Shown: in pieces, positions 9,986 through 39,202 of the stretch
Position numbering within the stretch: the first letter of the stretch is position 1
How the letters are laid out: every line of letters starts with the position of its first letter
Source: Lentisphaerae bacterium GWF2_49_21
Lineage (GTDB): Bacteria; Verrucomicrobiota; Lentisphaeria; Victivallales; GWF2-50-93
NCBI GenBank assembly: GCA_001804805.1
Contig: MHBH01000077.1
Location: forward strand, 87,355 to 151,354
Length of the DNA: 64,000 nucleotides
Reading direction: 5' to 3'
Program-made: the position numbers and the translations under genes
The notes under the pieces: generated by a model
Database searches by the model: none
Told to the model about the DNA's origin: nothing
What the model saw: the letters and a program-made list of their open reading frames with translations, nothing else

Positions 9986-9997
9986 GGTATCAGATTA

Positions 9998-10810: not shown

Positions 10811-10839
10811 AATTGCCCTAAAAAGAAGTAGATTAAAAG

Positions 10840-10865: not shown

Positions 10866-10881
10866 GCACAAGGGTTCCGAT

Positions 10882-11643: not shown

Positions 11644-11680
11644 TATTTATAATTCATTTAAAGGAAAGGTTGAATATAAG

Positions 11681-20883: not shown

Positions 20884-21477
20884 TCAATTGGATCGGCGCA
20901 GGTCTTCTTGTAATTTTTTAACGGCCTTATACTCCTCCGAATCTGATTCCGTGCCGGCGACTACCGCCTTCACTATCGCCGAAATCTTCTCCTGCTGCTC
21001 CGGATTTATCCCGGCTTTTCCAAGTATTTCAGAAACTCCATCGATATATTTTTTTCCGCTGGCGGAAAAAAATATTATGACAAGAGAAGTCTTCACGACA
21101 CACGGATCACACTTGGTTCCGCCAAGGACATTGTCCGCCAGCTTGCACGCCTTTTCAAGATCCTTCTGGGCTTTGTCATCCAGCTTGAACTGACTGGAAA
21201 GAAGCGCCTTGACCTTCTCGATTACAGGTGATGCTGATTCGTCCTTTGAAGCCCTTCCGAGGCACTGGTCGGCGAACTTGCACCATTTGGCGCAGCCAAG
21301 ATCTATTCTGGGATTCTTGATCTCATTGCTGCATTTTTTGCAGATAAGGAAAGGTTCATCTTTCCAGAATTCCATCTCATTGCCGCAGTGCGGACATTTC
21401 AGCGTGAATATGTCCTCCGGCTTCCAGAATCTCATGTCCTGCCCCGGACACCTTGGCCTTGCGTTGTCGGATTTCAT
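20884..21477 (-). CDS. zinc-ribbon domain hypothetical protein
   Basis: 197 aa. N-terminal CPHCG...CKKC plus further Cys pairs. I recognise no family. Confidence 0.55.
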   Translation of the reverse strand: MKSDNARPRCPGQDMRFWKPEDIFTLKCPHCGNEMEFWKDEPFLICKKCSNEIKNPRIDLGCAKWCKFADQCLGRASKDESASPVIEKVKALLSSQFKLDDKAQKDLEKACKLADNVLGGTKCDPCVVKTSLVIIFFSASGKKYIDGVSEILGKAGINPEQQEKISAIVKAVVAGTESDSEEYKAVKKLQEDLRRSN

Positions 21478-21984: not shown

Positions 21985-22881
21985 ATGGGCAGGGGAAAAA
22001 TTGTTGACGCGCTGAAGAGCGGAAAAATCCTGGTTTCCGACGGGGCATGGGGGACTTTCCTTCAGAAAAAAGGACTTAAGCCGGGCGAGTGTCCGGAACT
22101 CTGGTGCATAGACCGTCCGGACGATGTCTATGATGTCGCCAAGAACTACATCGATGCCGGTGCGGACATGGTCGAATCCGACAGTTTCGGCGGAACCTGC
22201 TTCAAGCTCGAGCACTACCACCTCGCGGAAAGGACCGCCGAGATCAACATTGCCTCCGCCAAAATCTCCCGCAAGGCCGCCGGTGACAATAAATGGGTCA
22301 TAGCGTCAATTGGACCGACAGGAAAAATGCTTGTCATGGGGGATGTCACCGAAGACGATCTCTACAAGGCCTTCAAGGAACAGGCTGTCGCGCTGGAAAA
22401 AGGTGGAGCCGACGCCATCTGCATCGAGACAATGAGCGCGACCGACGAGGCTGCAATAGCCATCAAGGCCGTCAAGGAAAACACAAAATGCGAAGTCATC
22501 TGCACGTTCACCTTCGAACTGACCGCGCACGGCGGATACAGGACCATGATGGGCGTCACTCCTGCCGATGCCGCAAAGGCCGCGCTTGAAGCAGGCGCCG
22601 ACATAATCGGTCCGAACTGCGGGAACGGCATTGAACGAATGATCGAGATCGTCAGGGAAATAAAGAAAGCCGCTCCTAAGTCATTTATCCTCGTCCATGC
22701 GAACGCCGGACTTCCGAAAAACGTCAACGGCGTTGACATATTCCCGGAGACGCCAGAAGAAATGGCGAAGAGGGTTCCTGAACTTATCAAAGCCGGCGCA
22801 AACATCATCGGCGGCTGCTGCGGAACGACACCGGCACATATAAAGGCGATAAAGCAGGCGGTGGAAACCTGCAAGAAGTAA
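21985..22881 (+). CDS. stand-alone homocysteine S-methyltransferase domain protein (MetH N-terminal module type)
   Basis: 298 aa. LVSDGAWGT, IGPTG, ETMSA, GPNCG, HANAGLP and GGCCGTTPAHIK align with the MetH Hcy-binding domain, including the Zn-ligand cysteines. Confidence 0.85.
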   Translation: MGRGKIVDALKSGKILVSDGAWGTFLQKKGLKPGECPELWCIDRPDDVYDVAKNYIDAGADMVESDSFGGTCFKLEHYHLAERTAEINIASAKISRKAAGDNKWVIASIGPTGKMLVMGDVTEDDLYKAFKEQAVALEKGGADAICIETMSATDEAAIAIKAVKENTKCEVICTFTFELTAHGGYRTMMGVTPADAAKAALEAGADIIGPNCGNGIERMIEIVREIKKAAPKSFILVHANAGLPKNVNGVDIFPETPEEMAKRVPELIKAGANIIGGCCGTTPAHIKAIKQAVETCKK

Positions 22882-23038: not shown

Positions 23039-24106
23039 ATGAAAACCAAATTCACCGCCACAGGCATTGGCAGTATGCCATTTCCGGATCCCGACTACGC
23101 AGTAAAGGTATCCCTCTCGAAGATGTGCAACGCCCCGATCTGGCCCCAGCTCCCGAAGCTCGGCCTGCATGAACAGATGGAGATCCAGTATTCCGAAGGC
23201 ATGCCCTGCACAGTGATCGATGAGGAGAAGCACAGGATGTATTTCGACACGTCAAAGGATTATTCCGAATCTTTTGCGCAACTCTACGAAGGCTACATTG
23301 CCGCATCCGAGGAAGGTGGAACCAGGGATTTCTCAAAGATGGCGATAAGCCCGGATTTCTCAAAGGGGATATACGCGCTCGAAAAGGCGCTCCAGGCAAA
23401 AGGCGGAGCAAAACTCCCGTTCGTGAAAGTGCAGACGACCGGTCCGTGCAGTTTCGCCCTGACACTCGTCGACGAGAACAAGCGCGCCATCTACTACAAC
23501 GAAGAGTTCCGCGACATGATCCTCAAGGCTCTTGCCATGAAATCCCGCTGGCAGATCCAGATGTTCCAGCCCTATGCTGAAAAGATCATCTGCTTCATCG
23601 ACGAACCCATCCTCTCGGCTTTCGGAAGCTCGACATATGTATCGGTCAAACGCGATGACGTTGTCATACTCGTAAACGAAGTCTCGGAAGCCATCCATGC
23701 GGAAAAAGCCCTTTCCGGAGTCCATTGCTGTGGAAATACAGAATGGAGCATACTCATCGACGCCGGCGTCGATATCGTAAACTTCGACGCATTCGGTTTC
23801 GGCGAGACGATCGCAATGTATCCGGAAGCTGTAAAGATGCATCTCGAACGCGGTGGAATCCTCGCATGGGGCGTTGTGCCTACATCGACCGCGATAAGGG
23901 ATCAGACCGTCGAGAAGCTTGCCGCGCATCTCGAGAAAATGATGGACAATCTGGCTTCAAAGGGAATCAACAAAAAGCTTATCGCGGAACAGGCGATGAT
24001 CACACCGTCATGCGGAACTGGCTCGATGGAACCGGCTGATGCGGAAAAAGTCTTCGAGACATTGTTCCAGCTCTCGAACACAATGAAAGCTAAGTATGGT
24101 TTTTAA
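23039..24106 (+). CDS. core-MetE-like (cobalamin-independent methionine synthase catalytic-domain family) zinc methyltransferase; candidate corrinoid-protein-dependent methionine synthase
   Basis: 355 aa. TATGIGSMP (compare MetE TTTIGSFP), IDEPIL, GVHCCGN and ITPSCGTG (MetE-type His/Cys/Cys zinc ligands). No N-terminal MetE domain. Confidence 0.65.
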   Translation: MKTKFTATGIGSMPFPDPDYAVKVSLSKMCNAPIWPQLPKLGLHEQMEIQYSEGMPCTVIDEEKHRMYFDTSKDYSESFAQLYEGYIAASEEGGTRDFSKMAISPDFSKGIYALEKALQAKGGAKLPFVKVQTTGPCSFALTLVDENKRAIYYNEEFRDMILKALAMKSRWQIQMFQPYAEKIICFIDEPILSAFGSSTYVSVKRDDVVILVNEVSEAIHAEKALSGVHCCGNTEWSILIDAGVDIVNFDAFGFGETIAMYPEAVKMHLERGGILAWGVVPTSTAIRDQTVEKLAAHLEKMMDNLASKGINKKLIAEQAMITPSCGTGSMEPADAEKVFETLFQLSNTMKAKYGF

Positions 24107-24278: not shown

Positions 24279-25058
24279 ATGAAAATCGCAATATCAGGGA
24301 AAGGGGGGGTGGGCAAATCGACACTTGCCGCCGCCCTCGCCCTGCTCATGGCGGAGAAGAAGAGAAAAGTGCTTGCGCTAGACACGGATCCGGCTGCGAA
24401 TCTCGCAAACGCCATCGGCATTCCTGCAGACATCAGGAACAAGATTATCCCAATTTCCAAACAAAAATCCCTGATCGAAGAGCGCACCGGCGCAAAAGTG
24501 AAACAATACGGACAGATGTTCAAGCTGAATCCTGAAGTCTCTGACATCGCCGACAAGTACGCCGTCAATTACAATGGAGTCTCCCTCATCGTGGTTGGCG
24601 CGATCGAAAAAGGCGGGAGCGGCTGTGCGTGTCCGGAGAGCGTCCTGATCAGGGCACTTGTGACAAACCTCGTGCTCCACAGGAACGAGGCGCTGATAAT
24701 GGACATGGAGGCCGGTGTCGAACATCTCGGCAGGGCGACCGCCAGCGGTGTCGACGGCATGATCATAGTCGTGGAGCCCGGACAGCGTTCCATCGACTGC
24801 GCAAAGGCGATAATCGGGATGGCCCATGACATCGGACTGAAGAAGCTGCATATCGTCGCAAACAGGGTGACCTGCCATGAAGACGAAACTTTTGTCAAGA
24901 ATTCTTTTCCTGACCAGGAACTGCTTGGATCTATCCCATTCTCGGAGAAGGTCCGCAAGTCCGATATGAACGAGGTTTCCGTCCTTGAGAAGATAGAACC
25001 GGAGACAAGAAAGGCTTTTGAATCAATTCTAAATAATGTTGAGAGGCTTTTAAAATGA
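24279..25058 (+). CDS. cooC: CODH/ACS nickel-insertion ATPase (CooC/AcsF family)
   Basis: 259 aa. P-loop GKGGVGKST; CooC CxC motif (GSGCACPES). Confidence 0.85.
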   Translation: MKIAISGKGGVGKSTLAAALALLMAEKKRKVLALDTDPAANLANAIGIPADIRNKIIPISKQKSLIEERTGAKVKQYGQMFKLNPEVSDIADKYAVNYNGVSLIVVGAIEKGGSGCACPESVLIRALVTNLVLHRNEALIMDMEAGVEHLGRATASGVDGMIIVVEPGQRSIDCAKAIIGMAHDIGLKKLHIVANRVTCHEDETFVKNSFPDQELLGSIPFSEKVRKSDMNEVSVLEKIEPETRKAFESILNNVERLLK

Positions 25059-25267
25059 AAACGGATGTCGTGCGTGAAAAATATGTCCGTCTCATGACGG
25101 AAATCGAGGATCTCGAGGACAAGATCGAGAAAGCTGAGAAAAAAGTTTCAAAGAAGGCCGGAAAGAAGGCTGAAAAGGAGCTTGAGCTGATGAAAGAACA
25201 GCTTGCGGCGAAAAGGAACGAGCTCGCAAGGATCAGCGACGGCTGCGGAAAACCGCATGCGCATTAG
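25055..25267 (+). CDS. small coiled-coil protein with a C-terminal Cys/His tail (hypothetical)
   Basis: 70 aa. ATGA overlap with cooC (translational coupling). Lys/Glu-rich heptad-like sequence ending in DGCGKPHAH. Confidence 0.45.
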   Translation: MKTDVVREKYVRLMTEIEDLEDKIEKAEKKVSKKAGKKAEKELELMKEQLAAKRNELARISDGCGKPHAH

Positions 25268-25269
25268 AA

Positions 25270-25439
25270 GTAGGGACGGCCTTTCTGTGTCCGGCGTAGC
25301 CTTTTGGCGAAGTCGGAAGGCTGTCCCAAGCAAGAAAGCAGAATGGTACAGGCTAAAGCCCGTACCTAAGAAGTAGGGACGGCCTTTAGGCTGTCCCAAG
25401 TAAGAATGTAGAATGGTACAGGCTAAAGCCCGTACCTAC
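25270..25439. repeat. two tandem REPIN doublets
   Basis: 25270-25327 is identical to 24163-24220 (the insert-bearing REP). Paired REP at 25345-25366. GTAGGGACGGCCTTTAGGCTGTCCC at 25373-25397 is the insert-free version. GGTACAGGCTAAAGCCCGTACCTAC at 25415-25439. Confidence 0.85.
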
Positions 25440-25448
25440 TTAAACAAA

Positions 25449-26279
25449 ATGTCCTACACAATAGCAGTGACAGGCAAAGGCGGGGTCGGCAAGACGACAG
25501 TGACCGGGCTTATCATCAACCGGCTCCTGGCGAACGGACGGACGCCTGTGCTTGCCGTAGACGCGGATGCAAATTCATGCCTGCATTCCGTTCTCGGGGT
25601 GACGGTTGAGAATTCTGTCGGCAAAATCCGTGAAGAAGCACGAGAGGAAGCGTCGAAGGGAAAAGTCACGGGAATCGCAAAACAGCAGATGCTCGAAATG
25701 AAGATAGCAGAATGTCTTGTCGAAGCGAAGGATTTCGATCTTATCGCGATGGGCAGGCCCGAAGGACCGGGCTGCTACTGCTACGCGAACAATGTATTGA
25801 GGGACGTAATCCGGAAACTTTCATCGAGCTATCCATACGTGGTAATCGACAACGAGGCGGGACTTGAAAACCTTTCGCGGCGTATTGTCCAGAAGGTCGA
25901 TCTTCTTGTGATGGTCGCGGATCCTTCGAAGAACGGAATCGAGACTATCAGGCGTCTTCACAAGCTTGCCTTTGAGATGAAAATAGATTTCAAGAAGCTC
26001 TGCATCTTCATCAACAGGACCAGGGACGGCAAGATTCCTGAAGAGGCGAAATATCTGAAGAATGAGACTGAAGCTGATTTTATCATACCTCTACCCGACA
26101 ACAAGGAAATTGCATCATTCTCGGAAAAGGGAACTTCACTGTTCGAGCTTTCCGTTGAGAACGAAGTGTCCAAGATAGTAGATGAATTTGTAGGACAATT
26201 GGATTGCATATTTGGCTGCGCCAAATCTGCAAAAGCAACTGCGTTGCAGGAGAAAATGGCAGCGAAGCTGCACATATAG
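25449..26279 (+). CDS. cooC: CODH nickel-insertion ATPase (CooC family), second copy
   Basis: Start at the ATG at 25449 (the upstream part of the ORF is REP sequence). GKGGVGKTT P-loop and GPGCYCY CxC motif. Confidence 0.8.
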   Translation: MSYTIAVTGKGGVGKTTVTGLIINRLLANGRTPVLAVDADANSCLHSVLGVTVENSVGKIREEAREEASKGKVTGIAKQQMLEMKIAECLVEAKDFDLIAMGRPEGPGCYCYANNVLRDVIRKLSSSYPYVVIDNEAGLENLSRRIVQKVDLLVMVADPSKNGIETIRRLHKLAFEMKIDFKKLCIFINRTRDGKIPEEAKYLKNETEADFIIPLPDNKEIASFSEKGTSLFELSVENEVSKIVDEFVGQLDCIFGCAKSAKATALQEKMAAKLHI

Positions 26280-26311: not shown

Positions 26312-28261
26312 ATGGCCAAGGAAGCTAAAAGACCGGAAGAGCTGGTTTCCGACCAGGCGTCGATCGAGACGATATTGAAAGCTCAGCTCGACTGCGTCGA
26401 AACTTGTTTCGTCAGGGCTGAAGCCCAGGGGATGCCCTGCAAGTTCGGAACACTCGGAGTATGCTGCAAGATATGCCACATGGGACCGTGCAAGATAACT
26501 CCGAAGTCTCCGCGCGGCGTCTGCGGAGCCGATGCCGACACGATTGTCGCCAGGAATTTCCTGCGCGAAACAGCTGCCGGAACTGCAGCCCATTCTGACC
26601 ATGGGCGCCATCTCGCCCTACGTTTCAAGAAGATTGCCGAAGGCAAGGAACCGGACTACAAGATCACCGATGTCAAGGCACTCCACAGGATAGCCGGAAA
26701 ATATGGAATAAAGACCGAAGGACGCGCTCAGAATGAAATAGCCCTTGAACTTGCGAATACGTTCATGTCCGAATTCACATCCCAGGAGGAACCGCTCAAG
26801 ACATTGAATCTAGCGCCGGAAAAGACCCGGGCCGTATGGAAAAAGACCAAAATCGAACCATACGGGGCAGACAGGATGGTGGTCGAGGCGATGCACCGTA
26901 CACATATGGGAGTTGATCATGATTACAGGAATCTTCTCGACATGGCCTTCAGGACTTCACTTGCAGACGGCTGGGGCGGAGCGCATGTTGCAACGCAGAT
27001 TTCCGACATAATGTTCGGAACGCCTGAACCTGTCAAAAGCAGTGCCAATCTCGGTGTGCTCGAAGAGAAGAAGGTAAATATAATTGTTCATGGACACGAG
27101 CCTGCTCTTTCGGAAATGCTCGCAACTGCGGTCTATGATCCGGAGATAATTGAATATGCGAAGAAGGCTGGAGCTGAAGGAGTGAACCTTGCAGGGCTCT
27201 GCTGCACTGCGAATGAGATCCTCATGCGCCGCGGAATAAATGTCGCCGGAAACTTCCTCCAGCAGGAACTTGCAATCATCACCGGCGCCGTTGAAATGAT
27301 GGTGGTCGATGTGCAGTGTGTGATGCCGAGCCTTCCGTCGGTCGCCGCGTCATATCATACATTGGTTGTTTCTACAACGGACATCGCAAAGACCATCGGA
27401 GCAATCCACATGGAGTTCGACGAGGATCACGCCTATCTTTCGGCAAAAAACTTAATTAAGAAGGCTATCGACAATTTCAAGAACCGCGATCCGAAGAAAA
27501 TGCAGATCCCGAAAGTCAAGGAACCTCTCATCGCAGGATTCAGCGTTGAAGCGATAAGATACATGCTCGGTGGATCATTCAGGGCTTCATTCCGCCCTCT
27601 CAACGACGCCATAATCCAGGGCAGGATCCGCGGAATCGCCGGAATCGTCGGCTGCAACAACATCAAGACTAAAACAGATTCGTATATCAACTCTATTACA
27701 AGAGAACTTATTAAACGGAACGTCCTAATTCTTAAGACGGGATGCGCCGCACAGGCCTCAGGCAAGGCTGGAAAACTTACTCCTGAAACCGCTCTGGGAG
27801 AGGCCGGACAGGGACTGCGCGAAGTCTGCGAGGCCGTAGGAATTCCGCCGATCCTCCACATGGGGAGCTGTGTCGACAACACGCGCATCCTCGAGGCTGC
27901 TTCTGAAATCGTCTATGAAGGCGGACTCGGTGACAGCATCGCGAAAGTTCCCGCAGTGGGCGTCGCCCCCGAATGGATGAGCGAGAAGGCCGTCGCGATC
28001 GGTTGTTATTTTGTGGCGTCAGGAGTCGATGTGATCCTTGGACAGCCTTTCCATATTTCCGGTTCGGAGAACGTGGTGAAATATCTCGACGAAGGGGCGA
28101 GGGAGAAGTACGGCGGGGGTTTCATATATATTCCTGATCCTATGGAGGCCGTCGAGAAGATCATGTCGCTCATCGAGGCAAAGCGTGAGAAGCTCGGTAT
28201 CAACAAGAAGGCCGAACGCAAGCTGCTCGACATGAAAGATAGGAGATCTACCAATGTCTAA
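26312..28261 (+). CDS. cooS: anaerobic Ni-Fe carbon monoxide dehydrogenase catalytic subunit
   Basis: 649 aa. N-terminal Cys clusters (CKFGTLGVCCKICHMGPC...CGA), AHSDHGRHL, GCNN, HMGSCVDN. Confidence 0.92.
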   Translation: MAKEAKRPEELVSDQASIETILKAQLDCVETCFVRAEAQGMPCKFGTLGVCCKICHMGPCKITPKSPRGVCGADADTIVARNFLRETAAGTAAHSDHGRHLALRFKKIAEGKEPDYKITDVKALHRIAGKYGIKTEGRAQNEIALELANTFMSEFTSQEEPLKTLNLAPEKTRAVWKKTKIEPYGADRMVVEAMHRTHMGVDHDYRNLLDMAFRTSLADGWGGAHVATQISDIMFGTPEPVKSSANLGVLEEKKVNIIVHGHEPALSEMLATAVYDPEIIEYAKKAGAEGVNLAGLCCTANEILMRRGINVAGNFLQQELAIITGAVEMMVVDVQCVMPSLPSVAASYHTLVVSTTDIAKTIGAIHMEFDEDHAYLSAKNLIKKAIDNFKNRDPKKMQIPKVKEPLIAGFSVEAIRYMLGGSFRASFRPLNDAIIQGRIRGIAGIVGCNNIKTKTDSYINSITRELIKRNVLILKTGCAAQASGKAGKLTPETALGEAGQGLREVCEAVGIPPILHMGSCVDNTRILEAASEIVYEGGLGDSIAKVPAVGVAPEWMSEKAVAIGCYFVASGVDVILGQPFHISGSENVVKYLDEGAREKYGGGFIYIPDPMEAVEKIMSLIEAKREKLGINKKAERKLLDMKDRRSTNV

Positions 28262-31200
28262 GATAATCTGCGGAAGCGCAATTGACGGAGCTATCGAATG
28301 GGTGGCGAAAGCCGAGGCCATACTCGACAAGGCTGTAAAGCTAAAAGGCGAATCAAGTCCGGTCGCATTTCCGAACACTGCCTATTACCTGCCTGTGATC
28401 TATTCGTTCACCGGCGAGAAGATGGAGAAGCTCTCGGATTTAAGAAGGATACTCAAGCTGGCTAAAAGCCTTCTTCCGGCGCGCCCAACCGACAAAGTTT
28501 GGCTGCCGTATCTCGGAAAGGCGCTTGATGCGGGCGCAGCAGCACTTTTCGCCTGTGAAGTGATCGAGGCGTGCAAATATCTCATCGGCCCAAATCCGGT
28601 CGACGGTATCTGGCTCGGTGCGGCGAACGATGTCATCATGCGTGAACGCGGAATTGAATTCGTCGACGGCACTGCTCCAGGATTCGCCGCCATCACCGGC
28701 GCGGCTCCGAACAGCAAGATAGCCGTAAAGATCGCGCGCGAACTCCAGGAAAAGAACCTTTATGTGTTCATGGCCGGCTGCACCAATGGCAAGCAGTTCG
28801 CCGAACAGCTCGCAGAAGAAGGCGTACAGCTCGGATGGGAGACACGGCTTGTTCCTTTCGGACGCGATGTGTCCGCTCTTATCTACGCACTTGGATTTGC
28901 GAACCGCGCAGCCCTTTCGTTCGGAGGAGTAAAACCCGGCGACTTCAAAGGAAACCTTAAATACAACAAGGAAAGAATATTTGCATTCGTCCTCGCATTG
29001 GGCGAAGTCACGGCCGACAAATATGCGGCGGCCGCAGGAGCGATCAACTACGGATTCCCTGTTATCGCCGACACCGCGATCCCGGAAATCCTACCGACCG
29101 GCGTCTGCACATACGAACATGTAGTCTCAAAAATCCCGCATGAGACGATGGTCGAGAAGGCGCTTGAAGTCAGAGGCTGCAAGATCAGGATAACAAAAGT
29201 TCCGATCCCGGTACCGTATGGCCCGGCGTTCGAGGGCGAACGCATCCGCAAGGCCGATGTCCATGTCGAATTCGGCGGGAACAAGACACCTGCATTCGAG
29301 TTTGTGACATCCGTAGATCTGGAAAGCATCAACGACGGCGAGATCGAGATCATAGGCCCTGACATTGACAAGGTAAAGGAAGGAGAAGCACTTCCTTTCG
29401 GAATCTGGGTCGAGGCCGCAGGCCGCAAGATGCAGTCCGACTTCGAACCCATCCTCGAACGCCAGATCCATCACCTGGTGAACGGCGCCGAGGGAATCTG
29501 GCACATGGGCCAGCGCGACATCATCTGGACGCGTGTCTCGAAAAACGGCTTCGCAAAAGGCCTTCGGTTGCGCCATTACGGCGAAATCCTTCATGCAAAA
29601 CTGCTTTCGGATTATCCGGCAATCGTAGACAAGGTGAAGGTCACACTAATAACCGATCTCAAGGAAGTTGAGAAACGCCTTGCCATAGCGAGGAAAGTCT
29701 ATGACGAACGCAACCGCCGTCTTGAATCCATGACAGACGAATCGGTCGACACCTTCTATTCATGCCTGCTCTGCCAGTCATTCGCGCCGAACCACGTCTG
29801 CATAATCACACCAGAACGACTCGGACTTTGCGGCGCATACAACTGGCTCGATGGAAAGGCCGCGTTTGAAATCGACGAGACCGGGCCCAACCAGCCTGTC
29901 AAGAAAGGCGAATGCCTCGATCCGGTCAAGGGCATATGGAAAGGCATCAACGATTATGTGTTCCCTAACAGCCATAAGACCGTGGATACGTTCTGCGCAT
30001 ATTCGATCATGGACAGGCCGATGACAAGCTGCGGATGCTTCGAAGTCATCTGTGCATATCTGCCGGAATGCAACGGAGTCATGGTAGTCAACCGCGAATT
30101 CCAGGGCGATACGCCTGTAGGAATGACGTTCTCCACCCTTGCCGGAAACGTCGGAGGCGGACAGCAGACGCCGGGATTCATGGGCTGTGGAAAAGTATTC
30201 CTGACTTCAAGGAAATTCCTCGGTGCCGAAGGAGGATTCAGAAGACTTGTCTGGATGCCGAAGGAGCTCAAGGAGCTTCTCGCGGCCGATCTCAAGCTGC
30301 GCTTCAAGGAACAGGGGGTTACTGATCTCATGGACAAAATAGCAGACGAGACGGTCGCGACCGAAGCCGGCGAAGTCCGCAAATATCTTGAGAAAATCGG
30401 CCATCCCGCGATCAAGATGGAGGACATGGGAGTATATGCGCATTCAGGAACCGCCGAAGCTGCTAGCCAGCCCGAGCAGGCTCCTGTCGAAATAAAACCT
30501 GTTGAGAAATTAGATGCTCCTGCCACAGACAGGAAACCGGAGGAGGAGGAAATGAAGATAACGCCTGAACTGATAAACCAGATCAAGAATCAGATCTCAA
30601 AAGAGATTTCCGATGAGCTCAAATCGACAATCGCCAAAGACATTGTCAAGGATATCATCGGAACACTGAGCGAGAAATATCTCAGGGAGAAGATCACGCA
30701 GGAACCTGCGGCGAAACCAGAGGTTCCCAAAACTGAACCAGTTCCTGTAAAGACTGTTGAAGCTCCGGTTGAAAAACCCCTCGCACAACAGGCCCCTGCC
30801 CCTACGCCAGTTGAAAGATTATCCTCGCTGAAGACCTTCAAGATCAGGAAGGACAAATGCGAGGTTCCGGTCTGGACCGTCAAGCTTGGCGCTGGCAAGA
30901 AGGAAGGCGGAACTAGAGGAAAGACCTATTCCGTCGGAGGTGCGACCTGCATGCCGTTCCATCTCTGGGAAGGTGAAATGCCAAACAGGCCTCTTGTAGC
31001 AATGGAAGTGTTCGATGTAGTCAACGATAAATATCCGCAGGTCCTCAGAAACACCTACGGCGATCTTCTTGCGAATCCCGCAAAGATGGCGAAGGCCTGC
31101 GTCGAGAAATACGGCGCGGATCTCATAAGCATCCGGCTCGAGGGGACTCATCCGGAAAAGGGCAACCGTTCACCTGAAGATTCAGTTAAACTCGTCAAGT

Positions 31201-31796
31201 CAGTTCTTGAAGCCGTCGATGTTCCGCTGATCATAACCGGGCACAACAACTTCGACAGGAACAACGAAGTGATGAAAGCTGTCGCACAGGCTTGCGCCGG
31301 AGAGAACCTGCTCCTCAACTGGGTAGAACAGAACAACTACCGCACCATCGCCGGAGCCGCGCTCGGTTACGGGCATTCGCTCGTTGCGCAGTCCCCGATC
31401 GACGTGAACATTGGCAAGCAGTTGAACATCCTCCTGACCAACATGGATGTGAAGATCGAACAGATCGTGATGGATCCGATGACAGGTTCCGTCGGCTACG
31501 GGATCGAATACACATACTCCGTGATGGAGCGCGTGAGATACACCGGACTGACCGGCGATAAGATGCTTGCAGGACCGATGATCGTCTCACCCGGACAGGA
31601 ATGCGCCAAGGTGAAGGAAGCCAAGGCCGAGGAGAAGGACTTCCCGGCATGGGGTGATCTCAAGAAACGCGCCGCCCTCTGGGAATACACGACTGCGGCG
31701 AATTTGCTTTATTCCGGCGCCGACATCCTGATCATGTACAGCCCGGAAGCGGCCGTAGCAATAAGGAAGTTAATAACAAAATTAATTAATAAATAA
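28254..31796 (+). CDS. acsB: acetyl-CoA synthase (AcsB) fused to the corrinoid Fe-S protein small subunit (AcsD)
   Basis: 1180 aa. Residues 1-725 are AcsB-like (CLLCQSFAPNHVC...LCGA and the A-cluster motif SCGCFE). Residues 726-859 form a Pro/Glu/Lys-rich linker with an amphipathic helix. Residues 860-1180 are AcsD/CdhD-like (VGGATCMPFH..., TIM-barrel type). Confidence 0.85.
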   Translation: MSKIICGSAIDGAIEWVAKAEAILDKAVKLKGESSPVAFPNTAYYLPVIYSFTGEKMEKLSDLRRILKLAKSLLPARPTDKVWLPYLGKALDAGAAALFACEVIEACKYLIGPNPVDGIWLGAANDVIMRERGIEFVDGTAPGFAAITGAAPNSKIAVKIARELQEKNLYVFMAGCTNGKQFAEQLAEEGVQLGWETRLVPFGRDVSALIYALGFANRAALSFGGVKPGDFKGNLKYNKERIFAFVLALGEVTADKYAAAAGAINYGFPVIADTAIPEILPTGVCTYEHVVSKIPHETMVEKALEVRGCKIRITKVPIPVPYGPAFEGERIRKADVHVEFGGNKTPAFEFVTSVDLESINDGEIEIIGPDIDKVKEGEALPFGIWVEAAGRKMQSDFEPILERQIHHLVNGAEGIWHMGQRDIIWTRVSKNGFAKGLRLRHYGEILHAKLLSDYPAIVDKVKVTLITDLKEVEKRLAIARKVYDERNRRLESMTDESVDTFYSCLLCQSFAPNHVCIITPERLGLCGAYNWLDGKAAFEIDETGPNQPVKKGECLDPVKGIWKGINDYVFPNSHKTVDTFCAYSIMDRPMTSCGCFEVICAYLPECNGVMVVNREFQGDTPVGMTFSTLAGNVGGGQQTPGFMGCGKVFLTSRKFLGAEGGFRRLVWMPKELKELLAADLKLRFKEQGVTDLMDKIADETVATEAGEVRKYLEKIGHPAIKMEDMGVYAHSGTAEAASQPEQAPVEIKPVEKLDAPATDRKPEEEEMKITPELINQIKNQISKEISDELKSTIAKDIVKDIIGTLSEKYLREKITQEPAAKPEVPKTEPVPVKTVEAPVEKPLAQQAPAPTPVERLSSLKTFKIRKDKCEVPVWTVKLGAGKKEGGTRGKTYSVGGATCMPFHLWEGEMPNRPLVAMEVFDVVNDKYPQVLRNTYGDLLANPAKMAKACVEKYGADLISIRLEGTHPEKGNRSPEDSVKLVKSVLEAVDVPLIITGHNNFDRNNEVMKAVAQACAGENLLLNWVEQNNYRTIAGAALGYGHSLVAQSPIDVNIGKQLNILLTNMDVKIEQIVMDPMTGSVGYGIEYTYSVMERVRYTGLTGDKMLAGPMIVSPGQECAKVKEAKAEEKDFPAWGDLKKRAALWEYTTAANLLYSGADILIMYSPEAAVAIRKLITKLINK

Positions 31797-31902: not shown

Positions 31903-33240
31903 ATGGCATTGACAGGATTACAGATACAGAAACTTCTACCGAAGACGAACTGCAAGGAATGCGGTTCGAACACGTGTCTCGCGTTTGCGATGAAGCTTGC
32001 AGCGAAAAAAGCGGAACTTTCACAATGCCCGTACGCGTCAGAAGAGGCGAAGAAAGTACTCGGTGCGGCAAGTGAACCACCGGTGAAATCAATCGTACTC
32101 GGACCCGACAAGAAACTCAAACTCGGTGAGGAGACTGTCCTTTACAGGCACGAAAAGACTTTTGTCAACCAGACCGCCCTCGCTGTCAACATAAACGACA
32201 CCGACAAGCCGGAGTCGATTGAAAAGACGCTCCGCGCGGTCGGCAGCTACCTGCTCGAGCGTGTCGGCGAAAAGCTCATCGTCGACATGGTCTGCATAAC
32301 CTGCAAGAGCGGAGATCCTGCGAAGTTCGCAAACATCTGCTCCAAGGCGTATGAGATCGCAAAGCGCCCGATCGTGATGCGCAGTTCCAGCGTCCAGGAA
32401 ATCTCAGCCGCGGCGAAGGCGGTGAAAGGTTCGAACAGCGTTATCGCATCGGCGAATCCAAAGACAGCCGATGAACTGAAAAAAATCGCCGAGGAGAACG
32501 GTCATGCGCTCGCATTGACAGCTCCTAACCTCGATGAGCTTTCAGCGCTGACTTCAAGGATCAAGGAGTCCGGCTTCAACAACATCATCCTCAATTTCGA
32601 GACGTTCTCGCTTTCAGAGCAGTTCCAGGTGAATTCAATCGCACGCAGGGCGGCGCTGAAGGACTCGTTCAAGCCTCTCGGATATCCTTCGATCAAATTC
32701 ATCGATGGAGGAGAAATGTTCGACATCGCCGGCGAGGCGATAAACGAGATCACAAAATACGGGGGGATCTGCGTGCTTCCATACTTCGATTCGGCAATGC
32801 TGGTTTCCCTGATGACGCTCCGTCTGAACATCTATACGGATCCTCAGAAGCCAATCCAGGTTGAGCCGAAAGTATATTCTATCGGCGAACCGGACAAGAA
32901 CTCCCCGGTATTCGTCACGACAAACTTCTCGCTCACATATTTTATTGTATCGGGCGAGATCGAGAACAGCGGGACAAACGCGTGGCTCGTGGTTCCAGAG
33001 TGCGAAGGCATGAGCGTCCTGACCGCCTGGGCTGCCGGTAAGTTCTCCGGCGCGTCGATCGCGAAGTTCATAAAGGGGATCGGGCTCGAGGAGCAGGTCG
33101 CCACGCGTCAGATCATAATCCCCGGCTACGTCGCGCAGATCAGCGGTGAACTCGAGGAAAGCCTTCCGGGATGGAAGGTCGTCGTAGGGCCGCAGGAAGC
33201 CGCCGACATTGAAAGCTTCGTGAAGGCGAGGATTAAGTAA
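31903..33240 (+). CDS. acsC: corrinoid iron-sulfur protein large subunit
   Basis: 445 aa. N-terminal 4Fe-4S motif CKECGSNTCLAF...C. AAGGAGG ribosome-binding site. Confidence 0.9.
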   Translation: MALTGLQIQKLLPKTNCKECGSNTCLAFAMKLAAKKAELSQCPYASEEAKKVLGAASEPPVKSIVLGPDKKLKLGEETVLYRHEKTFVNQTALAVNINDTDKPESIEKTLRAVGSYLLERVGEKLIVDMVCITCKSGDPAKFANICSKAYEIAKRPIVMRSSSVQEISAAAKAVKGSNSVIASANPKTADELKKIAEENGHALALTAPNLDELSALTSRIKESGFNNIILNFETFSLSEQFQVNSIARRAALKDSFKPLGYPSIKFIDGGEMFDIAGEAINEITKYGGICVLPYFDSAMLVSLMTLRLNIYTDPQKPIQVEPKVYSIGEPDKNSPVFVTTNFSLTYFIVSGEIENSGTNAWLVVPECEGMSVLTAWAAGKFSGASIAKFIKGIGLEEQVATRQIIIPGYVAQISGELEESLPGWKVVVGPQEAADIESFVKARIK

Positions 33241-33263: not shown

Positions 33264-35195
33264 ATGCCACTCATCACATTCAAACCATCCGGCAAGACGA
33301 TTGATGTTCCAGCGGGAACAGAACTCCTCGAAGCCGCTAGAAAAGCAGGGATAAAGATCGACTCCCCCTGCGGGGGGAAGGGTTCCTGCGGAAAATGCAT
33401 TGTGCATGTGCTTTCCGGAATTGTCGATTCCGACAGCCTCGGTGTTCTTCCGCAGACCGCGGTCGCCGACGGCTATGTGCTTGCATGCAAGACAAAAGTT
33501 CTTGATGGTCAGATAACTGTAGACATACCGGAACAGGTCGGCAGGACCGGCGGAAAATTCACAAAGGCGACCACCGAGGATTTCAACCTGATCCGCCAGG
33601 AACTTCTTCCGGAACGATGGGAATACGAACCGCTGGCGATAAAATGGATGATCAAGGTTCCCCCTGCAAAGATCGAGGACGGACTTTCCGACCTCGACCG
33701 ACTCTCACGTGCGCTTAAAAGGGAATGGGGCGAATGCGAGATCATATATAGCCTTCCCGTCCTGAGAAAAATCCCCGACACGCTCCGCGAAAAGGATGGA
33801 ATGGTCACTTTCACGTTGGTCAATGACGCCAAGCGCTGCTATGTGATCAACATCCAGCCGGGGGATACGACAGTCAATCATTATGGTGTCGCCATCGATG
33901 TCGGGACGACAACAGTCGCCGTGGAACTCGTCTATCTCTTCCTCGGTGAAGTCGTGGCGGTGAGAAGCGACTACAACGACCAGATAGACTGCGGACTCGA
34001 CGTGATAAGCAGGATAAACTACGCAAAGAATCCAGAACGACTGGAAGAGCTCAGGAAAAGAGTATTGAATTCCGTCAACCGGCTGATAAAACAGGCCGCT
34101 GAAAGCCATAATATTGATCTGAACGACATTTCGAGCGGTGTTATTTCCGGCAATACTGCGATGATCCATCTGATGCTCGGGATCAATTCAGAATATCTGC
34201 GTTTGGAACCTTATACTCCGACCATCCGCGAATCTCCATTCCTGACCGCCGCCGAAGTCGGACTGGACATCAACCCGCAGTCATGGCTTTATTTCTCCCC
34301 CCATGTAGGAAGCTATGTCGGAGGTGACATCACTGCCGGGATACTCTGCACGGATCTTGCGACTGACAGCAAGGACATCAGCCTTTTCATCGACATCGGA
34401 ACCAACGGAGAACTTGTGATAGGAAATTCTGATTTCATGCTGACATGTGCGTGTTCCGCAGGACCGGCGTTCGAAGGCGGCGGCATCGAGTTCGGGATGA
34501 GGGCCGCACTTGGAGCAGTCGAAAAAGCCGAGGTCGATCCGAAGACTGGACGCGCGCATTACTGGACAATAGGAAATGTGAAGGCGAAAGGAATTTGCGG
34601 ATCGGGAATGATCTCTCTTCTTGCCAATCTCTATCTGACGGGATGGATCGATGCATCCGGCAAGTTCAACCGCCAGATGAAATCAAAGTATATCATCGTA
34701 GAAGGACGTTTTGCAAAATATATCATCGTGCCGGCAAAGGAAAGTGCGACAGGCAAAGACATTACCATCAGCGAGATGGACATCGAGAACATTGTCCGTG
34801 CAAAAGCCGCGATCTACTCTGCGTGCAACCTGATGCTCGAACAGGTCGGGATGAAGTTCGAGGATCTCTCTACAGTATATATAGCGGGTGGATTCGGAAG
34901 GTCGCTCGATCTTGAAAAGGCGATTGTCATCGGACTCGTGCCCGACCTGCCACGCGAAAAATTCCATTATATCGGCAACTCGTCCCTGATGGGCACATAC
35001 ATGGTGCTTCTTTCAAAGGAGTTCAGGGAGAAGCAGCTCGAGCTTGCACGGAAGATGACCTATGTCGAACTCAACACCGCCCCGGCATACATGGACCAGT
35101 ACATAGGCGCCCTATTCCTCCCGCACACCGACATCAACAGGTTCCCGACAGTTAAGAAAATGAAAGATGATTTCACCACGAAGGGCACGAAGTAA
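33264..35195 (+). CDS. corrinoid activation/regeneration protein (RACo-type; 2Fe-2S ferredoxin + ASKHA ATPase)
   Basis: 643 aa. N-terminal plant-type ferredoxin motif (CGGKGSCGKC...C) followed by an ASKHA-like domain (AIDVGTTT, DIGTNGE). Confidence 0.85.
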   Translation: MPLITFKPSGKTIDVPAGTELLEAARKAGIKIDSPCGGKGSCGKCIVHVLSGIVDSDSLGVLPQTAVADGYVLACKTKVLDGQITVDIPEQVGRTGGKFTKATTEDFNLIRQELLPERWEYEPLAIKWMIKVPPAKIEDGLSDLDRLSRALKREWGECEIIYSLPVLRKIPDTLREKDGMVTFTLVNDAKRCYVINIQPGDTTVNHYGVAIDVGTTTVAVELVYLFLGEVVAVRSDYNDQIDCGLDVISRINYAKNPERLEELRKRVLNSVNRLIKQAAESHNIDLNDISSGVISGNTAMIHLMLGINSEYLRLEPYTPTIRESPFLTAAEVGLDINPQSWLYFSPHVGSYVGGDITAGILCTDLATDSKDISLFIDIGTNGELVIGNSDFMLTCACSAGPAFEGGGIEFGMRAALGAVEKAEVDPKTGRAHYWTIGNVKAKGICGSGMISLLANLYLTGWIDASGKFNRQMKSKYIIVEGRFAKYIIVPAKESATGKDITISEMDIENIVRAKAAIYSACNLMLEQVGMKFEDLSTVYIAGGFGRSLDLEKAIVIGLVPDLPREKFHYIGNSSLMGTYMVLLSKEFREKQLELARKMTYVELNTAPAYMDQYIGALFLPHTDINRFPTVKKMKDDFTTKGTK

Positions 35196-35314: not shown

Positions 35315-35914
35315 ATGTCCAAGACCGAAGGGCAGAACGAGGCGATCAGGATTGCGGCTGCGAAACTCGCAGGGGCGGATATGTCCAGGCGTGCGGACAA
35401 CCTCGGGTTCAGCTTCATGGACAAGGGAACAATCCTAATACGTGCCTTCGGGGCCGACTACACGGTTGATTTGAAAAGTTTCGATGTCAGGAATAAAAAG
35501 GCAGGTCAGCCGGTGAGACCCGACCTGAAGATCATAATTCTCCATTATCTGCTCTTCGATAATAAATTTTCCGAAACCGGAAAATTTATAACTTTCAGGG
35601 ATCTGCCTGGCGGACAGTTCTATCTTGAGCCTTACAAATCCAGGAGTGTCAACATCTTGTCCAGCGTGATAAAGGACGACGTTGCCCGATTGAAGAAGAA
35701 TCTTGGCCGTCTTGACTGGAAGGATAAGACTCCCGGCGACATCGGGGCGGAAATCCACGTTATTGGGAAAATCAAAGTGAACCTGATCTATTACAAGAGC
35801 GACGAAGAAATGCCGGCGACCGCAGATTTCGTATATGATTCGTCCATAAAGAACGTATTCAGCACGGAAGATGTGGTTGTAATGGCCTCATTGATATGCA
35901 GGATGCTGTTGTAA
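35315..35914 (+). CDS. hypothetical protein, DUF3786-like (a family I recall as co-occurring with acs clusters)
   Basis: 199-aa ORF, last gene of the cluster. The family assignment is from memory of its general character, not from a motif. Confidence 0.45.
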   Translation: MSKTEGQNEAIRIAAAKLAGADMSRRADNLGFSFMDKGTILIRAFGADYTVDLKSFDVRNKKAGQPVRPDLKIIILHYLLFDNKFSETGKFITFRDLPGGQFYLEPYKSRSVNILSSVIKDDVARLKKNLGRLDWKDKTPGDIGAEIHVIGKIKVNLIYYKSDEEMPATADFVYDSSIKNVFSTEDVVVMASLICRMLL

Positions 35915-36678: not shown

Positions 36679-37239
36679 ATGAAAAAAATTGTTGCTCTGG
36701 TGGTGATTGTATTTGCCATGACGGCCGGGACTGTAACTCAGGCTACGGTGCTGGACAAGATTGTGATGTACATCCCGAACAGGATCGTCGATGTGACGGA
36801 TATAATCTCGCTTTCACTTGGATTCGGACCATGCGCAAGAGCTGAAATGTGGTGCACAAGGCCGTTTTCCTTCGGAGCCGGTACAGGCGTCGAAGCCAAG
36901 ATGATAAAGGGTTACAACCGCCAGTACGGTTTCGGTCTTGAATCCGGATGGGATACCAGTTTCGTGATGATTTCCGCCGAAGGCAAGGAACTCCAGTCAA
37001 CTATCGGAACTGTAAAGACCGTTGAATACTATGCCTCAGGCGTTCCGGATCTCAGGAAGAAGGACTACAGCTATTCCGAAGGTTCAAGGGACTACTGGTC
37101 AGTAGGCGTCCAGGCTGGCTGCGGAATCGCCGAAGTCGACGCTGAATTCCATGCCATCGAACTCTTCGACTTTTTTGCCGGCTTCATTTTCTTTGATCTC
37201 AAGGATGACGATATAACAATGAATGACCTGAGCAACTGA
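36679..37239 (+). CDS. secreted hypothetical protein
   Basis: 186 aa. Signal peptide MKKIVALVVIVFAMTAGTVTQA. A strong terminator lies downstream. Confidence 0.55.
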   Translation: MKKIVALVVIVFAMTAGTVTQATVLDKIVMYIPNRIVDVTDIISLSLGFGPCARAEMWCTRPFSFGAGTGVEAKMIKGYNRQYGFGLESGWDTSFVMISAEGKELQSTIGTVKTVEYYASGVPDLRKKDYSYSEGSRDYWSVGVQAGCGIAEVDAEFHAIELFDFFAGFIFFDLKDDDITMNDLSN

Positions 37240-38688: not shown

Positions 38689-38779
38689 AAAAACTATAAA
38701 AAATATTTTTTTCGCCCTATTATTTTTAAAAAAACAAATTATATAAAAACATTCTTTCGAAATTCACTTGGAGGCTTAG

Positions 38780-39166: not shown

Positions 39167-39202
39167 TTCTCAAAATGCCAGCAGTTGATTGAAAAGGGAA
39201 CA

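What the first reader, a model, noticed from the sequence alone, without database searches (positions are those of the whole stretch)
28254..31796. Single 1180-aa polypeptide fusing acetyl-CoA synthase (AcsB) to the CFeSP small subunit (AcsD)
Residues 1-725 carry the AcsB cluster motifs (CxxC...C...C and the Cys-Gly-Cys A-cluster motif SCGCFE). Residues 860-1180 look like AcsD/CdhD. They are joined by a linker of about 135 aa (nt 30430-30830) that is rich in Pro, Glu and Lys and includes a predicted amphipathic helix. In the textbook bacterial system these are separate proteins, and CFeSP (AcsC/AcsD) docks transiently on ACS. A covalent tether would change the stoichiometry and the methyl-transfer cycle. 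I cannot verify how rare this architecture is.
Basis: partly seen in the sequence, partly recalled or inferred. Interest (0 to 1): 0.6.

Follow-up and report, generated by a model that had tools for sequence, protein, structure and literature searches.

The report
Acetyl-CoA synthase fused to corrinoid-protein subunit
One 1180-residue gene joins acetyl-CoA synthase to the small subunit of its methyl-donor corrinoid protein through a long flexible linker with a conserved helix; the fusion is real and widespread in uncultured anaerobes, but I found no paper that describes or studies it.

Summary
Window 28254-31796 (+) is one uninterrupted 1180-aa ORF. Residues 1-725 are a complete AcsB with intact A-cluster ligands. 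Residues 726-861 are a Glu/Pro/Lys-rich linker. Residues 862-1180 are a complete AcsD/CdhD.

It is not an assembly artefact. All 80 related species-level genomes examined keep the reading frame open (1145-1237 aa). The linker evolves under purifying selection. No second acsD lies in any of these operons.

It is not rare either. One tight clade (68-95% identical) spans Lentisphaerota, Verrucomicrobiota, Planctomycetota, Bacteroidota, Spirochaetota (termite Treponema), Bacillota, Desulfobacterota and others. A second, well-populated fused clade occurs in Chloroflexota.

Both clades share a linker layout of disordered arm, conserved amphipathic helix, disordered arm, although the two linkers show no detectable homology to each other.

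Every solved structure has AcsB and AcsD as separate chains. Ten full-text searches found no description of the fusion; one GenBank annotation does name both functions.

The most likely role is a covalent tether that keeps CoFeSP at 1:1 beside the A-cluster, with the helix as a docking or assembly element whose partner is unknown. Verdict: a new variant of a known system, of moderate interest.

The parts
28254..31796 (+). Whole AcsB-linker-AcsD fusion gene (1180 aa plus stop)
   Evidence: 100% identical to database protein P0001, from a Lentisphaeria MAG.
28254..29183 (+). ACS domain A1 (residues ~1-310), the CODH-binding, tunnel-bearing N-terminal domain
   Evidence: Pfam CODH_A_N 22-110. Aligns to residues 24-311 of solved A1 fragments such as 9fu4_B.
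29205..29669 (+). ACS domain A2 (residues 318-472)
   Evidence: Pfam CdhC, 216 bits.
29700..30428 (+). ACS domain A3 (residues 483-725) carrying the A-cluster ligands: C504, C507, C516, C526 (nt 29763-29831) and SCGCFE 592-597 (nt 30027-30044)
   Evidence: Pfam ACS_CODH_B_C, 392 bits. All ligand cysteines are invariant in alignment A1.
30429..30554 (+). Linker arm 1 (residues 726-767): variable, Pro/Glu/Ala-rich, predicted disordered
   Evidence: Column identity about 0.2-0.4 with many indels. pLDDT below 50. dN/dS 0.19-0.44.
30555..30701 (+). Conserved linker helix (residues 768-816), consensus TPExIxxIKxxIxxE..LKxxxTxEIVxDIIGTLSxKFLGE
   Evidence: AF2 helix 771-809. Among 80 aligned sequences: L805 in 80/80, I801 and I802 in 73, V798 in 71, G811 in 73. 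Hydrophobic positions recur every 4th residue. A 4-residue indel occurs in 28 sequences. dN/dS 0.13-0.22. No Pfam or PDB match.
30702..30800 (+). Linker arm 2 (residues 817-849): variable, Pro/Ala/Glu-rich, predicted disordered
30801..30836 (+). Conserved lead-in to AcsD (residues 850-861; the motif PxAxERLxxVxxFxIRKExCE runs on to residue 870)
   Evidence: dN/dS 0.04-0.16.
30837..31793 (+). AcsD/CdhD domain (residues 862-1180), the CoFeSP small-subunit TIM barrel
   Evidence: NF003376, 380.6 bits against a cutoff of 280. Aligns end to end with M. thermoacetica AcsD 4djd_D residues 4-317, E=7e-91.
26312..28261 (+). acsA, the Ni-CODH catalytic subunit; its stop overlaps the fusion start
   Evidence: Prismane, 560 bits; TIGR01702, 634 bits. 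Found upstream of the fusion in 75/80 loci.
31903..33240 (+). acsC, the CoFeSP large subunit (FeS domain, TIM barrel, B12 domain); the expected partner of the fused AcsD domain
   Evidence: NF003195, 507 bits; Pfam FeS plus CdhD. Found downstream of the fusion in 65/80 loci.
33264..35195 (+). acsV/RACo, the reductive activator of CoFeSP
   Evidence: RACo_C_ter, Raco_middle, RACo_linker and Fer2. NF040756 scores 710.8 bits, below its cutoff of 800. Present in 46/80 loci.
24279..26279 (+). Two CooC-like Ni-insertion ATPase genes (24279-25058 and 25413-26279)
   Evidence: CbiA, ParA and AAA_31 hits. Syntenic in 66-68/80 loci.

Best explanation
This is a genuine, expressed, selectively maintained gene fusion. 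The C-terminus of bacterial acetyl-CoA synthase (domain A3, which holds the Ni-Ni-[4Fe-4S] A-cluster) is joined to the small subunit (AcsD) of the corrinoid iron-sulfur protein by a flexible linker of about 135 residues.

Shown:
- One open frame with both domains complete.
- Catalytic ligands intact.
- Frame and domains conserved in hundreds of sequences from more than 10 phyla.
- The fused AcsD is the only AcsD in the operon.
- acsC and the activator RACo follow directly downstream.

Inferred:
- AcsC pairs with the fused AcsD domain, so a complete CoFeSP is permanently tethered to ACS at 1:1.
- The two disordered arms (about 40 residues each) plus a helix of about 40 residues give enough reach for the corrinoid protein to swing between its methyl donor, its activator and the ACS docking site on A1/A3 without diffusing away.
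- This would raise the local concentration of the methyl donor and couple expression stoichiometrically.
- The conserved amphipathic helix in the middle of the linker is a binding or assembly element, either docking on another subunit or self-associating, rather than a passive spacer. Its partner is unknown.
For: ORF and domains. Ligands invariant. All solved AcsB and AcsD are separate chains, and the linker is not covered by any of them. In all 80 genome loci the frame is open (1145-1237 aa) even though linker length varies from 93 to 190 aa. Full-length fused homologues: 120/120, 120/120 and 120/120. dN/dS is 0.02-0.07 in the domains, 0.13-0.22 in the helix and 0.16-0.44 in the arms. No second AcsD within +-6 kb in any of the 80 loci, and the order AcsA-fusion-AcsC-RACo is conserved: and. 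Helix conservation. An independent conserved helix in the same position in the Chloroflexota clade. The CoFeSP small subunit is the element that docks onto ACS A1 and A3 in the C. autoethanogenum cryo-EM complex: bioRxiv 10.1101/2024.08.05.606187. Archaeal ACDS uses disordered terminal regions and a CdhD helix to hold ACS and CoFeSP together: bioRxiv 10.64898/2026.07.07.736967.
Against: - There is no protein-level evidence that the 130-kDa polypeptide stays intact in the cell.
- The AF2 model is poor (mean pLDDT 67.9, pTM 0.40) and does not dock the helix or place AcsD relative to ACS.
- Any kinetic benefit of tethering is inference only.
- One main-clade member (L066, Syntrophaceae) lacks the helix, and one divergent representative (P0129) has only a ~50-aa linker. 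The helix is therefore not indispensable for a fused enzyme.
- dS is close to saturation, so the dN/dS values are approximate.
Confidence: 0.7

Rival explanations
1. Assembly or annotation artefact: a lost stop codon or frameshift merged two adjacent genes, acsB and acsD.
For: None found. Raw reads could not be inspected.
Against: - The same in-frame fusion appears in 80 of 80 independent species-level genomes from different studies and assemblers, and in 360 listed database proteins.
- Linker indels always preserve the frame.
- Linker dN/dS is below 1.
- In the nearest unfused relative, acsD is not adjacent to acsB but about 5 kb downstream, after acsC, RACo and cooC. A simple read-through therefore could not create this arrangement.
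Confidence: 0.01
2. Co-expression device only. The fusion guarantees equimolar synthesis, but the protease-accessible Pro/Ala/Glu-rich linker is cut after folding, so the mature enzyme behaves like the classical separate-subunit system.
For: Long disordered linkers are generally protease-sensitive (general knowledge). Nothing in this analysis shows the mature polypeptide is intact.
Against: - A conserved helix in the middle of the linker in two clades, and purifying selection on it, are not expected for a disposable connector.
- No conserved cleavage-type motif was seen in the variable arms.
Confidence: 0.1
3. Scaffold model. The linker helix self-associates (a coiled-coil-like bundle) and assembles several ACS-CoFeSP units, with the CODH dimers, into a large ACDS-like supercomplex. 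This would be a bacterial analogue of the archaeal CdhD N-terminal helix that oligomerises CoFeSP.
For: - The layout of disordered arm, conserved amphipathic helix, disordered arm, AcsD barrel is the same as that described for archaeal CdhD.
- The helix stays undocked in a monomer model.
- The same layout occurs in two clades without detectable sequence homology between them.
Against: - No sequence similarity to the M. acetivorans CdhD IDR fragment.
- The clade-1 hydrophobic periodicity is 4.0 rather than the 3.5 of canonical coiled coils.
- Oligomerisation could not be modelled with the tools available.
Confidence: 0.17
4. Neutral 'Rosetta-stone' fusion of two interacting proteins, with no functional consequence and a linker that is only a spacer.
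For: Fusions of interacting partners are common. This family is fusion-prone: a CODH-AcsB fusion (P0130), Pyr_redox_2-AcsB (P0128) and a short-linker AcsB-CdhD (P0129) were all seen.
Against: - The fusion persists at 68-95% identity across more than 10 phyla, and again in a second populated clade.
- Conserved helices are embedded in otherwise fast-evolving linkers.
Confidence: 0.1

Closest known systems
Bacterial CODH/ACS plus separate CoFeSP (Moorella thermoacetica AcsA/AcsB with AcsC/AcsD; Carboxydothermus hydrogenoformans; Clostridium autoethanogenum)
   Same: - Same domains and cofactor ligands. AcsB aligns at residues 9-725 with E about 1e-226 to 9fr0_A, 7zkj_B, 1ru3_A and 1oao_C. AcsD aligns at 863-1177 with E=7e-91 to 4djd_D.
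- Same operon partners: AcsA, AcsC, RACo and CooC.
- The small subunit is the ACS-docking part of CoFeSP in the solved complex.
   Different: - In every solved system AcsB and AcsD are separate chains, and CoFeSP docks transiently.
- Here they are one chain with a 136-residue linker containing a conserved helix that has no counterpart in any PDB chain.
- The AcsD domain falls below the cutoff of the acetogen-type WLP_AcsD model: 266.7 bits against 430.
- Clade-1 operons lack a nearby acsE.
Archaeal ACDS complex (CdhABCDE), as described in bioRxiv 10.64898/2026.07.07.736967
   Same: - ACS and CoFeSP are held together permanently.
- Disordered terminal regions act as tethers.
- A helix inside the disordered region N-terminal to the CdhD barrel organises the complex. 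The linker here has the same layout of arm, helix, arm, barrel.
   Different: - The archaeal tethering is non-covalent.
- CdhC lacks the A1 domain, whereas this protein has a full bacterial A1.
- There is no detectable sequence similarity between this linker and the M. acetivorans CdhD IDR fragment.
[quoted passage not shown]
Cobalamin-dependent methionine synthase MetH (established knowledge; not tested here)
   Same: Design principle: the corrinoid carrier and the modules it shuttles methyl groups between are strung on one polypeptide with flexible linkers, so the carrier swings between stations instead of diffusing.
   Different: - Unrelated catalytic chemistry.
- In the fusion only the non-corrinoid small subunit is covalently attached. 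The B12-binding AcsC remains a separate gene.
Chloroflexota/Anaerolineae AcsB-AcsD fusion clade (P0122-like; uncharacterised database proteins)
   Same: - Same domain order and same operon order: AcsA, fusion, AcsC, RACo.
- Same tripartite linker with a conserved central helix.
   Different: - Only 53% (AcsB) and 44% (AcsD) identical to the window protein.
- Separated from the main clade by unfused proteins in NJ trees.
- Linker not detectably homologous: hhalign probability about 1%.
- Sits in a classical WLP cluster with Fhs, AcsE and FolD.

Membership tests
Bacterial acetyl-CoA synthase AcsB (NCBIfam NF040764 / PRK09529) | Full-length match above the curated cutoff, covering domains A1-A2-A3 | tested here: met
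   NF040764 scores 1051.6 bits (cutoff 800) over residues 10-725. NF007078 scores 1036.2 bits (cutoff 809). Pfam CODH_A_N, CdhC and ACS_CODH_B_C are all present.
Bacterial acetyl-CoA synthase AcsB | A-cluster ligands: four Cys for the [4Fe-4S] cubane, and the Cys-Gly-Cys motif for the Ni-Ni site | tested here: met
   C504, C507, C516, C526, C593, G594 and C595 are present and invariant in 80 homologues. The assignment of ligand roles comes from established knowledge of M. thermoacetica ACS.
Bacterial acetyl-CoA synthase AcsB | Encoded next to a Ni-CODH (AcsA) with which it forms the bifunctional complex | tested here: met
   acsA at 26312-28261 overlaps the fusion start. AcsA is upstream in 75/80 loci.
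Bacterial acetyl-CoA synthase AcsB | Acetyl-CoA synthesis or cleavage activity | not testable with these tools
   Needs biochemistry.
CoFeSP small subunit AcsD/CdhD | Full-length match to a delta-subunit model above its cutoff | tested here: met
   NF003376 scores 380.6 bits (cutoff 280) over residues 862-1178. Pfam CdhD scores 141.8 bits (cutoff 24.8). End-to-end alignment with 4djd_D residues 4-317.
CoFeSP small subunit AcsD/CdhD | Partner large subunit AcsC (FeS domain, TIM barrel, B12 domain) encoded alongside, with no other AcsD in the operon | tested here: met
   acsC at 31903-33240 scores 507 bits to NF003195. AcsC is downstream in 65/80 loci and there is no second AcsD hit in any locus. 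No other CdhD-domain ORF exists in the 64-kb window.
CoFeSP small subunit AcsD/CdhD | Forms a heterodimer with AcsC and supports corrinoid methyl transfer | not testable with these tools
   No multimer prediction tool was available. Needs biochemistry or AlphaFold-Multimer.
Acetogen-type AcsD (NCBIfam NF040759 WLP_AcsD) | Score above the curated cutoff of 430 bits | tested here: not met
   266.7 bits. The domain belongs to a different delta-subunit subfamily than the canonical acetogen AcsD.
Archaeal ACDS-type tethering (CdhD N-terminal IDR with an oligomerising helix) | Sequence relationship to the archaeal CdhD N-terminal region | tested here: not met
   BLASTP of the linker against the M. 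acetivorans CdhD residue 43-88 fragment gives no alignment at E<=100. Archaeal delta models align only from residue 854 onward.
Archaeal ACDS-type tethering (CdhD N-terminal IDR with an oligomerising helix) | Helix-mediated oligomerisation of CoFeSP | not testable with these tools
   Only a monomer AF2 model was possible, and in it the helix is undocked.

The most novel reading that the evidence does not exclude
The AcsB-AcsD fusion arose at least twice, once in the multi-phylum clade and once in Chloroflexota. Each time it acquired a conserved amphipathic helix in the middle of a disordered tether. That helix is an assembly module that builds a permanently integrated, ACDS-like CODH/ACS-CoFeSP supercomplex in bacteria, making it a convergent counterpart of the archaeal CdhD coiled-coil scaffold. 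If so, bacterial acetyl-CoA synthesis would not universally rely on transient CoFeSP docking, and these proteins would provide a naturally locked complex for capturing the methyl-transfer state.
Probability: 0.15. Interest if true: 0.7.

Novelty: new variant of a known kind. Interest (0 to 1): 0.45.

Why it matters
How the corrinoid protein finds and leaves acetyl-CoA synthase is a live question. Recent cryo-EM work on bacterial CODH/ACS-CoFeSP and on the archaeal ACDS contrasts a "transient" bacterial mode with a "scaffolded" archaeal mode.

A widespread bacterial lineage that covalently links the two partners through a tether with a conserved helix blurs that contrast. It also offers several practical openings:
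- A natural 1:1 complex for structural capture of the methyl-transfer state.
- A direct test of whether proximity limits flux through the Wood-Ljungdahl carbonyl branch.
- A design template for engineered gas-fermenting strains.

There is an annotation consequence too. These proteins are named only "ACS subunit beta" or "alpha/beta" in the annotations listed. Gene-presence pipelines may therefore score acsD as missing in Lentisphaerota, termite Treponema, Anaerolineae and others, and so under-call the Wood-Ljungdahl pathway.

Tried and rejected
1. Literature. Ten full-text searches and nine papers read gave no description of an AcsB-AcsD fusion. Adam et al. 2018 (PNAS), the most likely place for one, is not held. 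Absence from the literature is therefore not proven.
2. Linker homology. Nothing significant came from the linker against PDB (best E=1.1), against Pfam (all hits below cutoff), or against the M. acetivorans CdhD IDR fragment (no alignment).
3. Common origin of the two clades' linkers. hhalign gave a probability of 0.6-1.5%, so homology is undetectable. Profiles of short helices have little power, so a single ancient fusion is not excluded.
4. AlphaFold2 of the full protein with an 80-sequence alignment. Mean pLDDT was 67.9 and pTM 0.40, and domain A3 and the linker were poorly modelled. It was used only for secondary structure, and no fold search was run on it.
5. Search for a cultured carrier. 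Querying with a termite Treponema MAG protein returned only MAG or single-cell records, with no T. primitia or other named isolate in the top 120.
6. Internal start at Met767. It is preceded by a purine-rich stretch and could yield a CdhD-like protein with an N-terminal helix. I rejected this as a general feature because position 767 is not conserved (Ala, Thr or Val in most homologues).
7. Fragments P0147, P0236 and P0179. They looked like stand-alone AcsD proteins with an N-terminal helix. P0147 and P0236 begin with the end of the AcsB domain, so they are contig-edge pieces of fusions. P0179 is ambiguous.
Full report
**1. Observation**

Window 28254-31796 (+) is a single ATG-initiated ORF of 1180 codons with no internal stop. 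An AGGAG ribosome-binding site lies 9 nt upstream, and the stop codon of the preceding acsA gene overlaps the start.

- Pfam finds CODH_A_N (22-110), CdhC (318-472), ACS_CODH_B_C (483-725) and CdhD (886-1167).
- NCBIfam gives a full-length bacterial ACS match (NF040764, 1051.6 bits, cutoff 800, residues 10-725). It also gives a full-length delta-subunit match (NF003376, 380.6 bits, cutoff 280, residues 862-1178).
- The A-cluster ligands (C504, C507, C516, C526, C593-G594-C595) are present and invariant in 80 homologues.
- Residues 726-861 are 14% Glu, 11.8% Pro and 11.8% Lys.
- AlphaFold2 predicts one long helix (771-809) between two low-confidence stretches.

**2. Artefact or real?**

A scan of one genome per species found 430 relatives. 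The best 80 all match query residues 1 to about 1180 contiguously. In each of these 80 loci I found an uninterrupted reading frame of 1145-1237 codons, even though the linker region varies from 93 to 190 residues.

Three protein-database searches each returned 120 of 120 full-length, four-domain proteins.

Codon-level comparison with four close relatives gives the following dN/dS values (dS is near saturation, so the values are approximate):

| Region | dN/dS |
|---|---|
| Catalytic domains | 0.02-0.07 |
| Linker helix | 0.13-0.22 |
| Linker arms | 0.16-0.44 |

The linker is therefore translated and under purifying selection. In the nearest unfused relative (P0124, 56% identical in AcsB), acsD is a separate gene about 5 kb downstream, after acsC, RACo and cooC. 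A simple read-through of adjacent genes could not generate this architecture. The artefact explanation is rejected.

**3. How common is it?**

The main clade is tight but taxonomically broad. AcsB-domain identity to the window is 75-95% and AcsD-domain identity is 57-94%. Record titles name the following groups:
- Victivallales/Lentisphaerota (closest, up to 91% overall)
- Verrucomicrobiota, including Opitutaceae, Kiritimatiellia and Pontiellaceae
- Planctomycetota
- Bacteroidota
- KSB1, Zhuqueibacterota, Chitinivibrionales, SAR324
- Spirochaetota, including termite-gut Treponema and Leptospirales
- Bacillota (Oscillospiraceae and others)
- Desulfobacterota-type lineages
- Oligoflexia
- Thermoanaerobaculia

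In a library clustered at 50% identity, the whole family collapses into two full-length representatives plus fragments. Unfused AcsB representatives are at most 56% identical.

The second representative, P0122, stands for a populated clade. All 120 listed hits are fused (1180-1262 aa, one with an intein), and wherever a name is given it is Chloroflexota or Anaerolineae.

In neighbour-joining trees (no support values) the main clade is monophyletic for both domains. P0122 is separated from it by unfused proteins in both trees. This suggests one or two origins, but both fused clades share the operon order AcsA, fusion, AcsC, RACo, so I leave the number of events open.

A third, short-linker AcsB-CdhD form (P0129) and other fusions in the family also exist: CODH-AcsB, Pyr_redox_2-AcsB and intein-bearing AcsB.

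**4. Anatomy of the linker**

Across 81 aligned main-clade proteins the two arms are highly variable, with column identity about 0.19 and many indels. The centre is conserved.
- Hydrophobic residues recur every fourth position from 769 to 810.
- L805 is present in 80/80 aligned sequences, I801 and I802 in 73, V798 in 71, L810 in 71, F809 in 66, and a Gly cap at 811 in 73.
- A 4-residue indel at 786-789 occurs in 28 sequences, which is exactly one period.
- The motif just before the AcsD barrel (PxAxERLxxVxxFxIRKExCE) is also conserved.

The Chloroflexota clade has the same tripartite layout with its own conserved helix, ADVQQIAQxSAxIVxGSIRRALEAALRELGG, in which A845 and L846 are at 100% and L849 at 99%. 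The two linkers show no detectable homology to each other (hhalign probability about 1%).

The linker also matches nothing in Pfam or the PDB, and it does not match the archaeal CdhD IDR fragment. One main-clade member, L066, lacks the helix.

**5. Context**

The operon runs as follows:
- an S-methyl_trans-domain gene
- a 355-aa gene with no Pfam hit
- two cooC-like genes
- acsA
- the fusion
- acsC
- acsV/RACo
- DUF3786
- then gcvT, gcvH, gcvPA and gcvPB

This order is conserved in the 80 loci, and none has a second AcsD within +-6 kb. No other CdhD-domain ORF occurs in the 64-kb window. The fused domain must therefore be the CoFeSP small subunit of this system.

**6. Mechanism**

*Shown:* both catalytic and structural domains are complete and conserved, the fusion is the only source of AcsD in the operon, and its partner AcsC and the activator RACo are co-encoded.

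*From the literature:*
- In archaeal ACDS, CoFeSP is a scaffold that tethers ACS and CODH through disordered terminal regions, and it oligomerises through a helix in the CdhD N-terminal IDR.

*Inferred:*
- The fusion turns the small-subunit/ACS contact into an intramolecular one.
- AcsC binds the fused AcsD barrel, giving a CoFeSP that is permanently attached at 1:1.
- Two arms of about 40 residues plus a helix of about 6 nm have a contour length above 30 nm (simple polymer arithmetic, not computed by a tool). That leaves CoFeSP free to visit its methyl donor and RACo and to return to the A-cluster.
- The conserved helix is most simply a binding or assembly element. Its partner is unknown.

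**7. Comparison and novelty**

All solved bacterial systems have separate AcsB (708-734 aa) and AcsD (309-323 aa) chains. [quoted passage not shown] It does not mention this fusion.

One GenBank record is annotated [quoted passage not shown] (P0307), so the dual nature has been noticed at annotation level.

I classify this as a new variant of a known kind. It is real, widespread and uncharacterised, and it is interesting mainly because it bears on the current debate over transient versus scaffolded methyl transfer. It is not categorically new, because fusion of interacting partners is a familiar evolutionary move.

**8. Limits**

- No protein-level evidence.
- No multimer modelling.
- The trees have no support values.
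- Only the best 80 of 430 genome hits were inspected.
- All carriers seen are MAGs or single-cell genomes.
- The literature check is limited to the held library.

Noticed in passing
window 21985-22881 (+) and 23039-24106 (+); also L085:3666-6038: Upstream of the operon and co-oriented with it are two genes. One is a 298-aa S-methyl_trans (MetH Hcy-binding-like) gene. The other is a 355-aa gene with no Pfam hit and only a weak MetE-like NCBIfam hit. The second carries an HCCG...D...SCG pattern resembling the HCDC zinc site of MesB-type 'core' methionine synthases, which are proposed to take methyl groups from CoFeSP (PMC7857596). Both genes are syntenic with the fusion, in 34 and 55 of 80 loci respectively.
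   Followed up: partly
whole window 1-64000; L084, L085 versus L086: No Pterin_bind (AcsE methyltransferase) gene exists anywhere in the 64-kb window, nor within +-10 kb of the fusion in a Treponema or an Oscillospiraceae locus. The Chloroflexota fusion clade, in contrast, sits in a classical cluster with Fhs, AcsE and FolD. Clade 1 may use ACS/CoFeSP in a partial, Dehalococcoides-like C1 scheme. Presence of acsE elsewhere in these genomes was not checked.
   Followed up: partly
window 37579-41991 (+): A complete glycine-cleavage set lies directly downstream of the CODH/ACS operon on the same strand: gcvT 37579-38688, gcvH 38780-39166, gcvPA 39185-40549 and gcvPB 40540-41991. This hints at a linked C1/glycine module.
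   Followed up: no
window 35315-35914 (+): A DUF3786 gene follows acsV. It recurs next to the fusion operon in 21/80 loci, and upstream of it in the Oscillospiraceae locus L085. Its function is unknown.
   Followed up: no
proteins P0126, P0421, P0128, P0130, P0136, P0129, P0233, P0265: The ACS family shows other unusual architectures:
- AcsB interrupted by a LAGLIDADG intein (P0126, and the fused P0421).
- Pyr_redox_2-AcsB (P0128).
- CODH-AcsB single chains (P0130 at 1375 aa, and P0136).
- A short-linker AcsB-CdhD (P0129).
- AcsD proteins with unannotated C-terminal extensions of 200-340 aa (P0233, P0265).
   Followed up: partly
window 30555-30701 (fusion residues 768-816): The hydrophobic positions of the linker helix repeat with period 4.0, not the 3.5-3.6 of coiled coils or ordinary amphipathic helices. 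A common indel is exactly 4 residues long. The structural meaning of this periodicity is unexplained.
   Followed up: partly
L001-L080 versus the window: The main fusion clade is 68-95% identical across more than 10 phyla, while the nearest unfused AcsB is only 56% identical. This suggests the whole operon spread by horizontal transfer. It was not tested against a species tree.
   Followed up: no
window 434-5005 (+), 42034-43770 (-), 8369-14397 (+): The flanks carry three tandem sulfatase genes, a GH2 glycosidase, rhamnogalacturonan-lyase-like and pectate-lyase-like genes, and AraC regulators. This is a polysaccharide-degrader context, consistent with a Lentisphaerota/Victivallales host.
   Followed up: no
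window 63114-63593 (+); also 36679-37239, 52597-53853 (-), 10882-11643, 20884-21477 (-): An IS200-like (Y1_Tnp) transposase gene lies near the window end. Four ORFs of 186-418 aa have no Pfam hit.
   Followed up: no
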